This document shows positions 57,201-64,000 of a DNA stretch of 64,000 nucleotides, one piece after another; position 1 is the first letter of the stretch, and each line of letters starts with the position of its first letter. This DNA comes from Pecten maximus (taxonomy: Eukaryota). Where the stretch lies: positions 36,022,001 to 36,086,000 of the forward strand of contig NC_047020.1 of assembly GCF_902652985.1 (NCBI RefSeq). Reading direction: 5' to 3'. The position numbers were made by a program.

Positions 57201-60200
57201 GAATAATTGCATTTTGTATGGGACATCTGTACAATGTACGGATGTGTTATATTGCACCTTTGGAGCTGATCATGACATCATAAAATAAGGGGCATTTCCC
57301 AAAATACCAAAGAAATTTTAATACCAGACCGTAAAATTGTAATAAAGTTGATCTTAAATTAAAAACGTAACAGAAAAATCAGTTCAATATTTAACCATGC
57401 CAAAAAGGTATCAACGTCATTAGAATATCCCAGCCTTCTGACGTCATAATATTCTGACGTCATATCTTTTGTTTTGACAAGTATTCGTCAGTCTGCGAAT
57501 TATGATATTCGATATTTTAGAGGGCACACCTTAAGTGTCATAATCAACATACATTTTGTAGCTATTTGAACAAGCCTCCATTCAGTCAGAGAAACTATTC
57601 GGTAATACAAACAAATGTCAAATCTGACCGCCATTTTGAAATTTACATAACTTTAATTGGTCCACAATACTTGACAAAGTCAGAGAAAGTATCAACAGAA
57701 AAAAATGTAGGGATATTCAGTTAACAAGTATAGAACATAGGATACCATTGAATTTAAAAAAAAAACGGTTAACGCGCATGACAGGAAGTGACAACAACTG
57801 AGACAATTCTTCCGAAACTGACGATTAGTTTCAGCGTTGTAGATTAAACATTTATCAAGCTACACTTTAAAAAATAAAATTATTACGAATTCTTATATAA
57901 CGTTCACACCTATTGTATATTGGGGACCAAAACGACGAATTTTTAAGAAACAAAATTATGTTTCAAAGTCTACAGATATTGGTTAGATCAGGACAAAAAG
58001 TTTGTTAAATTATAACGAACAAGAAAAGATTATGCTTTCTAGACGGAACTTTCCACAACAGGATAGGACGTATATTATTTCATCTGTACCGGAACCGGAA
58101 GTCGATATCAGAATCAACGTGTAATTTGCTGACATAAGGCCAGACTCGTTTCAGTAGTATATGCTTATAGCAAAAAATATATCTTTACCAGTGTAAACAG
58201 ACTGATGTTCGACTATTGTCAAAAAAAAGGTATACACATTTTTCAGAAATACTTGAAAAGTACCTCGTTATCGAATTTGAAAGGAAAATAAACAGAAAAT
58301 ATCAACATAGCACCAATAGAGACAAAGAATCGTGTGATTTAAAGCAGACGAAATCATTAATGTCCACTGTAGTCTGTAGGTAACTAAAAGGGACCATTAG
58401 CTTCACATACCACTAATCTGCATTTGAATATAATATTTCAAACTGGAAATATTAAATGTTCAATAATCATCGAACACATGTTCAAGAAACAATTACAGAT
58501 TCGTCAGATCATAACTGTTCAATTTTATATACATTAATAACAAGTTGGCAATGAAATGGGCATTCGTCTGAGAAAAAACGGAATCAAAAGTATGAGGAAA
58601 TGATTTAGGTGATGAAAACAAATGCGATGATCAAATTGGACAACACTACAATCATAACAATGTTTGACAAAGCCAGCGAGTGAACATTTATGAAAAAAAT
58701 ATTATTGTCTTCCGTTCAAAATATGAGTATCATACAAATTATGTAGCTCGGAAACGCCATAATACGTCATGACGTGGACTATGACGTCACTCATGGCATG
58801 CATCATCACAGGTGCTTCTTTAACTGGAATATCTTTAATAAACGGCCAATGAGAGAGCGTTGATCTATGTCATAGCGATGTCCAATGCCAAAACTATTCA
58901 GAATTTGTTTTCAGATTGTGTTTTAGTTTAGTTTGAAAAATGAATGCCAAATCGCGTGTTTTCTTTTTGACATTGTAGGAATGACAAAAAATATAATTTA
59001 AATCTCATCATGTTCATCAAAATTGAAATGTTTTGAACACTTATGGCACCGGAAGTGACGTTTTTCATGACCAACATTCCTCATCGATTCTTCAGTAAAG
59101 CGAGTGTTTTTGGATAAGAATTTTTAATCACAGATTACAACATTTGTGTTGGAAATGTATGGATGAACATTTCGTACTTAATGTTGTGTTCGGTTCATAC
59201 CTGATAAAATCGAATAAATTACAAATAAATAACTATAAATAAACACTGTCTGATCACCACAAGTTCTGGGGGAGAGAACGAGACAGATTGCGACATTAAA
59301 ATGATGACGTCACTGCTTATTGTTTATGACGCAAAATCGTATATGAGCACAATAATGGACAGGATTAAGTGTCGCCATAATAGTTTGTCATTGTTGAACA
59401 TATTCAATTACGTCTGCACGAAAATAACGTGTGTTTCCTCCGCTTGCTTCTAACTCTCGAATGAACGACATTTCGTCGGGATGTGACGCCATTACACGAA
59501 CGATCACATTAATCGAGAAGGTTTGTGTTCGGCGTTCCTAACGCCGCCCGAAGTAGCACCTTTTATCATCGGTCAGTCCACGTGAGAACTGACCAGTAGG
59601 CTGGGTCCAAGGAATCCTTAGAGTAGGTTTCATGTTGGATGGCGCCGGTGCCGTCTCCGCGTTCGTCTTCTGTTCCGCCTTGACCCCAGATTACACCTTT
59701 CAGCTATTTTTCTAGAGCGGTCTTTTTCTCGTCCAAGACGTTTAAAACAGTTTCTCTTACGAAATTGTTTCAGTTCTCTCACGGATGTCGTAAAGAAATT
59801 CCGTACCACTTTCCTGCAGAATTTTAAATACGTCCGTTTCGGTTTGCACTTTGGCACTGGTTTACCTTCACAGCTACCCGAATTTTCCTCCGGTTTAAAG
59901 TCGCCCATATTAAATAACAGGAATTTCCTCAATTGCCTTCGCTGCTTACAGTCTTTAGCTACTATGGGTTGACCATCACAGTTAAGTCCTACATAAAATG
60001 GCTTCTTATGGTGTCGTAATCGTGAAAGACGGAACACTGTTTTGTTAAAGCTAGAGTCATTGCTCTGAATCCACTGCTGGTTAAATTTGAAACTGCATTC
60101 CATCTCTGTAAATGAATTCTGCAAATCGAAAAGAATACAAAATTAATACAAAAACACAGAAATTACGTCATTTTGAGACTAATACTTTCTAGAAAGTGAG

Positions 60201-63200: not shown

Positions 63201-64000
63201 ATATCTGGCGTAAAAGTCAGTATGTTTGAAAAGTCTAAGAAGAATGAGAATACTCACCATATCTGGACGACCGACACTTCGTACCGTTGATGGTCCCGTC
63301 AGAATTTATCTGTAACAGCATGACGTCATTAATAGCGATGAAAACTGACCCCTCGTTTACACGAGGCTCCCAATCAAAACGCTCATTCTTTAGGGCTTCA
63401 CGTGCGTCCGGGTGTCCGTTCATATACGACATACTCGTTCCGGTGGGGAAATGGGTAAGCAGGCACAAGAGTACGAAAGCCAAAGTCGTGAAGTGGTCTA
63501 CTCCGGGGATAGATTGTGTAACATGCGAGGTCATTGCTCAATACACACCAGGTGATACCGCCTTGCACACGCACGTGCATTTAACTGACTGGATGGTGAA
63601 CACGTGTTGTAAAATCTATAGTAATACATGCACATCCACTTAATGAAGATCATTTGAAATTCACGAAATCCTTTCTTCAATACGACGAATTAATTATGTA
63701 ATATCTTCTTGACGTCTACCACAAGACTGGATTTCTCCACAAAATCATAAAAAATCACAAATATTTCACCACTTTGTATATATATATATATATAGATATA
63801 TGTAAATCCCAATGAATTATAATAATTTGGTCACATGGTATCCGGTCATGAACTGTAGCACGATAGCCTATGAAATAATCCCAACGGTATTCTCTGGTTC
63901 AGTGGCCGACTCATCATTTGTAAAGTAAAATCCAACGAATGTATGTCATGCTGATATAGCATGGAAGGTACCTGTAACGAAAAGACGGTTCACTTAGTTG

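What the first reader, a model, noticed from the sequence alone, without database searches (positions are those of the whole stretch)
59630..63534. Divergent secreted FGF with remodelled receptor-binding region
Seen: the spliced 294-aa protein keeps the FGF exon structure and core motifs. After ECxF, the Glu of the usual C-x-F-x-E motif is Phe (ECSFKF), the typical YNTY segment reads FNKTVF, and this loop is longer and carries two N-glycosylation sequons (NDS, NKT). Known: that Glu and adjacent residues contact FGFR in vertebrate FGFs. Inference: a lineage-specific ligand with altered receptor specificity, or an antagonist. It mixes FGF9/16/20-like (GTINGT) and FGF8-like (ET..FLCM) features, so I cannot place it in a subfamily by eye.
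Basis: partly seen in the sequence, partly recalled or inferred. Interest (0 to 1): 0.7.

Follow-up and report, generated by a model that had tools for sequence, protein, structure and literature searches.

The report
Divergent secreted FGF-family ligand gene
This is a real but fast-evolved three-exon gene for a secreted fibroblast-growth-factor-like signalling protein with an unusually basic tail, which is ordinary for invertebrate genomes; whether its altered receptor-contact residues change its function was not tested.

Summary
Three minus-strand exons (63534-63258, 60525-60407, 60118-59630) have consensus splice sites, intron phases 1 and 0, and 294 codons by arithmetic.

Searched exon by exon, all three point to the FGF family in colinear order:
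- Exon 2 hits Pfam FGF (E 5.7e-5, profile 44-68).
- The first 73 residues of exon 3 hit it weakly (E 0.024, profile 71-124).
- The end of exon 1 matches FGF1 chains and designed trefoils.
- Protein-atlas look-alikes of exons 1 and 3 are FGF clusters.

The motif claims are correct. The sequence reads C-S-F-K-F where FGFs have C-x-F-x-E. The following loop is about 7-10 residues longer and carries NDS and NKT sequons. A third sequon (NGT) lies in exon 1.

New here is an 89-residue C-terminal tail with pI 11.7 and five cysteines, which matches no family.

The inference of altered receptor specificity or antagonism is untested. Failure to fit a subfamily is normal for invertebrate FGFs.

No orthologue search, phylogeny or fold of the joined protein was possible. 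Verdict: a new member of a known kind, of modest interest.

The parts
63258..63534 (-). Coding exon 1 (277 nt; 92 codons plus the first base of a split codon). It holds the start codon, the signal-peptide-like segment, an N-terminal linker and the first trefoil hairpin (VMLLQINSDGTINGT).
   Evidence: Searches give the sequence. Pfam gave no FGF hit for this exon alone. With the last 43 aa against PDB, 13 of 50 hits were natural FGF1/FGF13 chains (best E 0.13, query 19-42 to FGF1 23-46), 17 were designed trefoils, 17 were propellers and 3 were dockerins. The top three atlas clusters carry FGF (scores 0.86-0.84, leads only).
63448..63492 (-). Hydrophobic core of a probable signal peptide (exon-1 residues 15-29, FTTLAFVLLCLLTHF).
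   Evidence: Kyte-Doolittle 11-residue mean peaks at 2.63 for residues 16-27 and falls below 0.5 by residue 24 onward. No SignalP-type predictor was available.
63280..63288 (-).
   Evidence: Regex on the exon translation.
60526..63257 (-). Intron 1 (2732 nt, phase 1), GT...AG.
   Evidence: It holds a 21-bp duplication at 62256-62299. No dispersed repeat shared with the rest of the window touches 59400-64000. None of the ORFs inside it resembles exon 1, 2 or 3.
60407..60525 (-). Coding exon 2 (119 nt; last two bases of the split codon plus 39 codons). It holds the second trefoil hairpin (QMFLCMSGLGKLYAS).
   Evidence: Pfam PF00167 FGF: E 5.7e-5, 23.6 bits (curated cutoff 24), residues 14-38 to profile 44-68 of 124. 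In PDB, 12 of 13 hits at E up to 10 are FGF-family chains: FGF7 0.02, FGF18 0.09, FGF4 0.12.
60119..60406 (-). Intron 2 (288 nt, phase 0), GTAAGT...AG.
   Evidence: Reading through the donor hits a stop after 13 codons.
59900..60118 (-). Exon 3, FGF-core part (73 residues). It holds the remodelled segment and the third trefoil hairpin (PFYVGLNCDGQPIVA), followed by the basic beta10-beta12 region.
   Evidence: Pfam FGF: E 0.024, 15.1 bits, residues 4-67 to profile 71-124. PDB: only FGF7, E 0.12. Atlas with the whole exon: 29 of 30 hits in the FGF set, top score 0.91, 175 of 256 features shared, recognition 2113 (below 2300, so weak). 13 of 73 residues are K/R, pI 9.85.
60083..60097 (-). C-S-F-K-F: the position of the C-x-F-x-E motif, with Phe in place of Glu.
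   Evidence: Read directly. FGF7 shows C-N-F-K-E in the chain printed.
60038..60061 (-). Two sequons, NDS (60053-60061) and NKT (60038-60046), in the lengthened loop after the motif.
   Evidence: The first 35 residues of exon 3 alone find no FGF in PDB (0 FGF among 1 hit at E up to 10), so this is the most diverged stretch.
59633..59899 (-). C-terminal tail (89 residues): pI 11.7, 33 K/R, 5 Cys, ending in an Arg-rich run with RNRR, RTRR and RHRR.
   Evidence: No Pfam family at E up to 0.1. In the exon-3-only AlphaFold model it is a long helix of low to moderate confidence; mean pLDDT of the whole model is 42.
59630..59632 (-). Stop codon TGA.
   Evidence: The nearest polyadenylation-like hexamer (ATTAAA) is 502 nt downstream, at 59128.

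Best explanation
The locus is an intact cellular gene for a fast-evolved member of the fibroblast growth factor family.

Shown here:
- Three exons with consensus splice signals and two introns inside the core.
- Independent matches of the exons to the FGF family, in colinear order.

Inferred mechanism:
- The N-terminal hydrophobic segment takes the protein into the secretory pathway.
- It may be N-glycosylated at up to three sequons.
- The beta-trefoil core, whose beta10-beta12 region stays strongly basic, binds heparan sulfate and the species' FGF receptor as a short-range paracrine ligand.
- The 89-residue, very basic, Cys-bearing tail either tethers the ligand to heparan sulfate or matrix, which would limit its range, or is trimmed by proprotein convertases. 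This would resemble the long C-terminal regions of the Drosophila FGFs.
- The Glu-to-Phe change and the longer glycosylatable loop are most simply read as lineage-specific drift, co-evolved with the cognate receptor.
For: Gene model.

Family assignment:
- Pfam FGF matches exon 2 (E 5.7e-5, profile 44-68) and the exon-3 core (E 0.024, profile 71-124). These sit on the same strand, in order, with compatible phase. A second hit to the same one of 24,736 families in the adjacent exon is very unlikely by chance.
- PDB with exon 2: 12 of 13 hits are FGFs.
- PDB with the end of exon 1: 13 of 50 hits are natural FGF1/FGF13 chains and 17 of 50 are designed trefoils.
- Atlas: 29 of 30 hits for exon 3 fall in the FGF set, and the top three for exon 1 are FGF clusters.
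- Three hairpins of the form hydrophobic-x-hydrophobic-x-N/S-x-x-G can be read in exons 1, 2 and 3.

Core introns: two ancestral internal core introns are reported for amphioxus, human and ascidian Fgf genes (PMC11733497, passages).

Secretion and heparan sulfate binding: hydrophobic peak 2.63 at residues 16-27; basic core (13 of 73 K/R) and basic tail (33 of 89 K/R).

Part of the primary receptor site looks kept: F66-L67 align with F134-L135 of FGF7. The equivalence to FGF2 L140 is recalled.

Precedent for processed C-terminal regions: Thisbe and Pyramus are secreted as cleaved N-terminal fragments, and the FGF domain alone is active (PMC2923630, abstract).
Against: - Exon 1 alone and the whole 162-residue exon 3 give no Pfam FGF hit at E up to 10.
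- Exon 2 is 0.4 bits under the curated cutoff.
- Both atlas queries have recognition below 2300, where a high score is weak evidence.
- 17 of the 50 PDB hits for exon 1 are beta-propellers that share the same hairpin motif.
- ORF length is not beyond chance (20 of 100 simulations).
- The conserved primary-site Glu is lost. An Asn that may correspond to a receptor-contact Asn sits in a sequon, which could block canonical binding.
- There is no expression, orthologue or selection evidence.
- No fold evidence was obtained. The exon-3-only model has pLDDT 42.
Confidence: 0.62

Rival explanations
1. The protein is a secreted FGF-fold ligand whose remodelled primary receptor site gives it a different receptor preference. 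Alternatively, it binds heparan sulfate or receptor without productive dimerisation and so acts as a brake or antagonist.
For: Phe replaces the Glu of C-x-F-x-E. E96 is listed in the conserved primary receptor site of FGF2 (PMC8465397 passage). The loop is 7-10 residues longer with two sequons and is the stretch with no detectable FGF similarity on its own. [quoted passage not shown]
Against: No receptor, binding or structure test was possible. Invertebrate FGFs are generally very diverged and co-evolve with their own receptors (PMC3420111, PMC8224027). The C-terminal part of the site appears kept. It is unknown whether the sequons are used.
Confidence: 0.17
2. The protein acts mainly inside the cell. 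The Arg-rich C-terminus would work as a nuclear or nucleolar targeting signal, as recalled for FGF3 and nematode LET-756, either with secretion inefficient or from downstream start codons (Met35, Met38) that skip the hydrophobic segment.
For: The tail ends in RRNRRRTRRRHRRH, has pI 11.7 and matches no family. In-frame Met codons follow the hydrophobic segment.
Against: The first ATG precedes a typical hydrophobic core. Three sequons and eleven Cys residues counted over the three exon translations suit a secreted protein. The comparison with FGF3 and LET-756 is recalled and was not tested.
Confidence: 0.08
3. The locus is an unexpressed or decaying FGF copy, or the model is incomplete (wrong first exon, or exons outside the window), so the odd motifs reflect relaxed constraint or mis-assembly of the model.
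For: Exon 1 has no Pfam support of its own. The gene lies 466 bp from the window end. The 170-aa ORF length is not beyond chance. The divergence is extreme, and there are no expression data.
Against: All three exons are open, with consensus donors and acceptors in matching phases. A stop lies two codons before the ATG. Exon 1 gives FGF leads from two tools. No alternative exon with canonical motifs exists in the window: 0 matches to YN[TA][YL], and none of the 7 C.F.E matches lies inside the gene, among 2955 six-frame ORFs. No second copy of any exon is present.
Confidence: 0.09
4. It is not an FGF but another beta-trefoil cytokine (for example an invertebrate IL-1-like gene), or the similarity is chance.
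For: Beta-trefoil families share hairpin motifs. The exon-1 atlas list also holds ricin-type lectin, FRG1 and fascin clusters. Invertebrate IL-1 homologues with conserved intron phases were recently described (PMC13736523, passages).
Against: Every family-level hit is to FGF. No IL-1 or other trefoil family appeared for any exon in Pfam at E up to 10. The described invertebrate IL-1 proteins lack signal peptides and mostly carry an N-terminal PDZ domain, unlike this gene.
Confidence: 0.04

Closest known systems
Fast-evolving invertebrate FGFs of unresolved subfamily (for example annelid Avi-fgfA, the second Lottia FGF, the many cnidarian FGFs)
   Same: They have an FGF core detectable only weakly, no robust orthology to vertebrate subfamilies, and are presumed secreted ligands. 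[quoted passage not shown]
FGF8/17/18-type ligands, including Drosophila Pyramus and Thisbe
   Same: ET-x-x-[FY]-LCM in the second hairpin matches FGF18 as printed. The best atlas cluster for exon 1 is named 'FGF8 family' (0.86, lead only). There is a long C-terminal extension beyond the core, as in Pyr and Ths, which are cleaved (PMC2923630 abstract).
   Different: Exon 2 scores no better against FGF18 (16.3 bits) than against FGF7 (18.3) or FGF4 (15.9). The tail here is only 89 residues. Grouping was not tested by phylogeny.
Vertebrate paracrine FGFs with solved structures (FGF7, FGF1, FGF2)
   Same: The match to the core is colinear: FGF7 chain 53-77 with exon 2 and 99-135 with exon 3, and FGF1 chain 23-46 with exon 1. 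The core has two introns. The heparin-binding end is basic.
   Different: Glu of C-x-F-x-E is Phe. There are about 7 extra residues between the Cys and the next anchor. Two sequons lie in that loop. The central exon is five codons longer than the 104-nt one (the 104-nt figure is recalled). There is a long basic tail.
FGF homologous factors (FGF11-14)
   Same: They are FGF-fold proteins that keep the trefoil but do not activate FGFRs (recalled). FGF13 and FHF1 chains appear among the weak hits for exons 1 and 2.
   Different: FHFs lack a signal peptide and act inside cells. This gene starts with a signal-peptide-like segment and has sequons.

Membership tests
FGF family (Pfam PF00167) | Match to the FGF profile at or above the curated score (24 bits) | tested here: inconclusive
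   Exon by exon only. Exon 2 scores 23.6 bits, E 5.7e-5. The exon-3 core scores 15.1 bits, E 0.024. Exon 1 and the whole exon 3 give no hit. The exon-2 ORF read into the intron scores 27 bits. The matches are colinear (profile 44-68, then 71-124). The joined protein was not scanned, by instruction.
FGF family (Pfam PF00167) | Beta-trefoil fold of three hairpin units | tested here: inconclusive
   Three similar hairpin motifs can be read, one per exon. Exon 1 matches designed and natural trefoils. The AlphaFold model of exon 3 alone has pLDDT 42. The whole domain was not folded.
FGF family (Pfam PF00167) | Two conserved introns inside the core domain (ici1, ici2) | tested here: met
   Two introns split the core. 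Intron 2 falls at about profile position 69-70, and the phases are 1 and 0. The ancestral two-intron structure is described in PMC11733497 (passages). That the positions and phases equal those of vertebrate genes is recalled, not computed.
FGF family (Pfam PF00167) | Conserved primary receptor-binding residues (FGF2 Y24, E96, N101, Y103, L140, M142) | tested here: not met
   The E96 position is Phe. The N101/Y103 region cannot be aligned because the loop is longer. The L140 position appears to be Leu and M142 Phe, by the FGF7 alignment plus recall. The Y24 position is uncertain. The residue list comes from the PMC8465397 passage.
FGF family (Pfam PF00167) | Binding to and activation of an FGF receptor with heparan sulfate | not testable with these tools
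   The species' receptor is not in the window and no eukaryote sequence collection was open. The basic beta10-beta12 region (13 of 73 K/R) is compatible with heparan sulfate binding.
Secreted (paracrine) FGFs | Cleavable N-terminal signal peptide | tested here: inconclusive
   A hydropathy peak of 2.63 over residues 16-27 is followed by small residues (PTGTS). No dedicated predictor was available.
FGF8/17/18 or FGF9/16/20 subfamily | Grouping with subfamily members in a phylogeny | not tested
Exon-wise scores do not discriminate (FGF7 18.3, FGF18 16.3, FGF4 15.9 bits).
IL-1 family (other beta-trefoil cytokines) | Match to an IL-1 profile; no signal peptide; N-terminal PDZ domain in invertebrate members | tested here: not met
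   No IL-1 family hit for any exon at E up to 10. A signal-peptide-like start is present. The features of invertebrate IL-1 come from PMC13736523 passages.

The most novel reading that the evidence does not exclude
A secreted, glycan-shielded FGF-fold protein has lost the conserved acidic receptor contact. Anchored to heparan sulfate by its highly basic Cys-bearing tail, it acts as a natural competitive brake on FGF signalling, or signals through a non-canonical partner. That would be a ligand-derived antagonist within the FGF family of a bilaterian.
Probability: 0.1. Interest if true: 0.6.

Novelty: new member of a known kind. Interest (0 to 1): 0.27.

Why it matters
If the gene is expressed as modelled, it adds one more lineage-specific FGF to an invertebrate repertoire, which is useful for annotation and for developmental work in that species.

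The parts worth a bench test are specific and cheap to address:
- a Phe at the position of a Glu listed in the conserved primary receptor site;
- two sequons in the neighbouring lengthened loop;
- an 89-residue tail of pI 11.7.

If these prove conserved in orthologues and change receptor use or signalling range, the gene would be a natural experiment in how FGF-receptor interfaces are rewired. If not, it is ordinary drift in a fast-evolving ligand.

Tried and rejected
- Co-folding the three exon-encoded peptides as three separate chains, to see whether exon 1 docks onto the rest: score 0.00, no verdict, so not used either way.
- AlphaFold of exon 3 alone without an alignment: mean pLDDT 42, too poor for a fold search, so none was run.
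- The whole exon 3 (162 aa) against Pfam and PDB: no FGF hit. Only the 73-residue core part gave one.
- The first 35 residues of exon 3 against PDB: only a repeat protein at E 4.9.
- Exon 1 against Pfam, whole, as its ORF and as its last 37 aa: nothing relevant.
- ORF length as evidence of coding: rejected, because 20 of 100 simulations reach 170 aa.
- A search for a second FGF copy or an alternative canonical exon in the window: none found.
- A batch Pfam scan of 144 ORFs of 64 aa or more, out of 2955 ORFs of 15 aa or more, leaving out ORFs that cross the N run: only five single-member families at E up to 0.01. The TRAF6_Z2 hit (E 2.4e-5) could not be placed. The 7 non-FGF ORFs rescanned gave nothing at E up to 0.1; 3 of them had been picked by a zinc-finger-like pattern.
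- One paper search on bivalve and cephalopod FGF genes returned only off-topic papers, and a search for Glu96 returned a docking passage of no use.
- The bacterial/archaeal, phage, plasmid and E. coli collections were not searched, because they cannot hold relatives of an animal FGF.
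Full report
**What is there.**
- Exon 1 runs from the ATG at 63534 to 63258 and ends ATG|GTGAGT. An in-frame TGA lies two codons upstream of the ATG.
- Exon 2 runs 60525-60407. It is preceded by a pyrimidine tract and ttcag, and followed by GAG|GTAAGT.
- Exon 3 runs 60118-59630. It is preceded by tgcag and ends in TGA.
- The lengths of 277, 119 and 489 nt give 294 codons plus stop, with intron 1 in phase 1 and intron 2 in phase 0.
- The three exon translations were made separately. 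No search or fold of the spliced protein was run, and every result below is per exon.

**Family.**
- Exon 2 (39 aa) matches Pfam FGF, PF00167, at E 5.7e-5 and 23.6 bits, just under the curated 24. Its residues 14-38 align to profile positions 44-68 of 124.
- Against solved structures, 12 of exon 2's 13 hits at E up to 10 are FGF-family chains: FGF7 0.02, FGF18 0.09, FGF4 0.12, then FGF13, FGF1, FGF10 and FGF12.
- The whole 162-aa exon 3 gave no FGF hit in Pfam or PDB. Its first 73 residues match Pfam FGF at E 0.024, 15.1 bits, residues 4-67 to profile 71-124. In PDB they match FGF7 only, at E 0.12.
- The protein atlas placed exon 3 among FGF clusters: 29 of 30 hits in that set, top score 0.91, 175 of 256 features shared. 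Its recognition value of 2113 is below the 2300 mark, where the tool calls a high score weak evidence.
- Exon 1 has no Pfam FGF hit.
- Exon 1's last 43 residues found 50 PDB chains. Thirteen are natural FGF1 or FGF13/FHF chains (best E 0.13, query 19-42 to FGF1 23-46). Seventeen are designed symmetric trefoils, which I recall were derived from FGF1. Seventeen are beta-propellers that share the hairpin motif. Three are dockerins.
- The top three atlas clusters for exon 1 carry FGF on 31%, 17% and 20% of their members. The scores of 0.86-0.84 are leads only, and the recognition value is 2232.
- One hairpin of the same pattern can be read in each exon: VMLLQINSDGTINGT, QMFLCMSGLGKLYAS and PFYVGLNCDGQPIVA. 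This is what a three-fold trefoil should show.

**Is it more than chance?**
- ORF length is not. In 100 second-order Markov simulations of the window, 20 had an ORF of 170 aa or more.
- The exon-2 E-value alone would also be unimpressive if spread over the 2955 six-frame ORFs of the window.
- The weight lies in agreement. The next exon on the same strand hits the same one of 24,736 families, in colinear order, across consensus splice sites in matching phase. Two further tools point to the same family for exons 1 and 3.
- I put membership of the FGF family at about 0.9.
- Two internal core introns are reported as the ancestral Fgf gene structure (PMC11733497, passages), and this gene has two. 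That their positions and phases equal the vertebrate ones, with a 104-nt central exon there against 119 nt here, is my recall.

**The remodelled region.**
- The exon-3 text reads T-E-M-E-C-S-F-K-F, so the Glu of C-x-F-x-E is Phe. FGF7 shows C-N-F-K-E in the chain printed.
- A review passage lists Y24, E96, N101, Y103, L140 and M142 as the conserved primary receptor site of FGF2 (PMC8465397). That E96 lies four residues after the conserved Cys is recalled numbering.
- The loop that follows is longer. 64 query residues cover 54 profile positions, and 23 residues against 16 separate the Cys from the anchor aligned with FGF7.
- The loop holds NDS and NKT sequons. On its own it has no detectable FGF similarity.
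- Further on, F66-L67 align with F134-L135 of FGF7. With recall of the FGF2 sequence, this suggests the L140 position is kept and M142 is Phe.
- So one acidic contact is lost, the N101/Y103 stretch is not alignable, and the hydrophobic C-terminal contact looks retained.
- The window offers no alternative exon that would restore canonical motifs. There are 0 matches to YN[TA][YL], and none of the 7 C.F.E matches lies inside the gene. No second copy of any exon exists.

**Secretion and tail.**
- Exon 1 has a hydrophobic core with an 11-residue hydropathy mean up to 2.63 at residues 16-27. It is followed by small residues, and there is a third sequon, NGT. No signal-peptide predictor was available.
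- The core part of exon 3 is basic (13 of 73 K/R, pI 9.85), as expected for the heparin-binding end.
- Beyond it lies an 89-residue tail with 33 K/R, 5 Cys and pI 11.7, ending in RNRR, RTRR and RHRR. It matches no Pfam family at E up to 0.1.
- The closest functional parallel I could document is Drosophila Thisbe and Pyramus. Their C-terminal regions are cleaved off and are not needed for receptor activation (PMC2923630, abstract). Furin cleavage of Branchless was seen only in a search listing (PMC6504889).

**Surroundings.**
- The window is 36% G+C with CpG observed/expected near 1. It has one N run at 47195-47330, which I left alone.
- It is rich in minisatellites and dispersed repeats.
- It holds a reverse-transcriptase tail fragment at 35779-36153 (zf-RVT, E 0.0025).
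- A batch Pfam scan of 144 ORFs of 64 aa or more showed no other convincing gene.
- The gene lies 466 bp from the window end, so its promoter and any upstream neighbour are out of view.
- Nothing suggests a human contig.

**Comparison with what is known.**
- Reviews and primary papers state that lophotrochozoan and other invertebrate FGFs are 'quite divergent'. Their affiliation 'remains problematic', and unplaced paralogues are probably fast-evolving rather than new subfamilies (PMC3420111; PMC8224027; passages only).
- Brachiopods and a phoronid are reported to have one FGF8/17/18 and one FGF9/16/20 each (PMC8180254, passage). The trees are in supplementary figures that I could not see.
- A ligand with a restricting role has a precedent in Nematostella FGFa2 (10.1101/2023.06.07.544043, passage). 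The antagonist idea is therefore possible but would not be without parallel.
- An IL-1-like trefoil is unlikely. There is no IL-1 hit, and the described invertebrate IL-1 proteins lack signal peptides and mostly carry a PDZ domain (PMC13736523, passages).

**What stayed unchecked.**
There are therefore no orthologues, no phylogeny, no selection test and no receptor from the species.
- I cannot say whether this gene is already annotated or published for its genome. The paper searches were general, not gene-specific.
- The co-fold of the exon peptides gave no verdict, and the exon-3-only model was too poor to use.

**Verdict.** The FGF identity is well supported, while the functional inference is open. 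This is a new, strongly diverged member of a known family. It has a real substitution at a conserved receptor contact, a lengthened glycosylatable loop and an unusual basic tail. Interest is modest, at 0.27.

Noticed in passing
window 6996-7989: A 31-bp minisatellite of 32 copies (90% matches). It keeps all three minus-strand frames open (ORFs of 396, 353 and 319 aa), so these are the longest ORFs of the window and are almost certainly not genes.
   Followed up: partly
window 5407-5750: A G+C-rich 35/70-bp tandem repeat (8.2 copies, 92% matches). It gives three overlapping plus-strand ORFs of 126-154 aa.
   Followed up: no
window 35779-36153 (+): An ORF with a weak match to zf-RVT, the zinc-binding tail of reverse transcriptases (E 0.0025, 18.9 bits, below the cutoff of 27.5). 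It is probably a fragment of a non-LTR retrotransposon.
   Followed up: partly
window 10784-11009, 13800-14027, 23661-23766: A dispersed repeat of about 110-230 bp in three copies (89.9-97% identity, one pair inverted). Its translations share a PDTLSLALH-WVAS-like peptide. No Pfam family was found for two of the ORFs.
   Followed up: partly
window 18902-19569: A 78-bp (or 162-bp) tandem repeat of about 8 copies, 84-87% matches.
   Followed up: no
window 47195-47330: An N run of 136 bases, either an assembly gap or masked. It was left untouched, and ORFs across it were excluded from the batch scan.
   Followed up: no
window, ORF not located: One of the 144 ORFs scanned matched Pfam TRAF6_Z2 at E 2.4e-5. 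The 7 non-FGF ORFs rescanned on their own (3 of them picked by a zinc-finger-like pattern) did not reproduce it, so it may be a repeat-inflated score from a minisatellite ORF.
   Followed up: partly
window 59622-59972 (+) and 63248-63643 (+): Long antisense ORFs (116 and 131 aa) lie opposite coding exons 3 and 1. The 131-aa one has no Pfam family at E up to 0.1. They are most likely shadows of the coding strand.
   Followed up: partly
window 28086-28750 and 51466-51521: A 282-bp direct duplication (96% matches) is followed by poly-C-rich 30-34-bp repeats. A separate 56-base G run lies at 51466-51521.
   Followed up: no
window 60365-60550 (-): The exon-2 ORF read on into intron 2 scores higher against Pfam FGF (27 bits, profile 43-74) than the exon alone (23.6 bits). 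The intronic codons VSDDV happen to fit the profile, but the frame stops 13 codons after the donor.
   Followed up: yes
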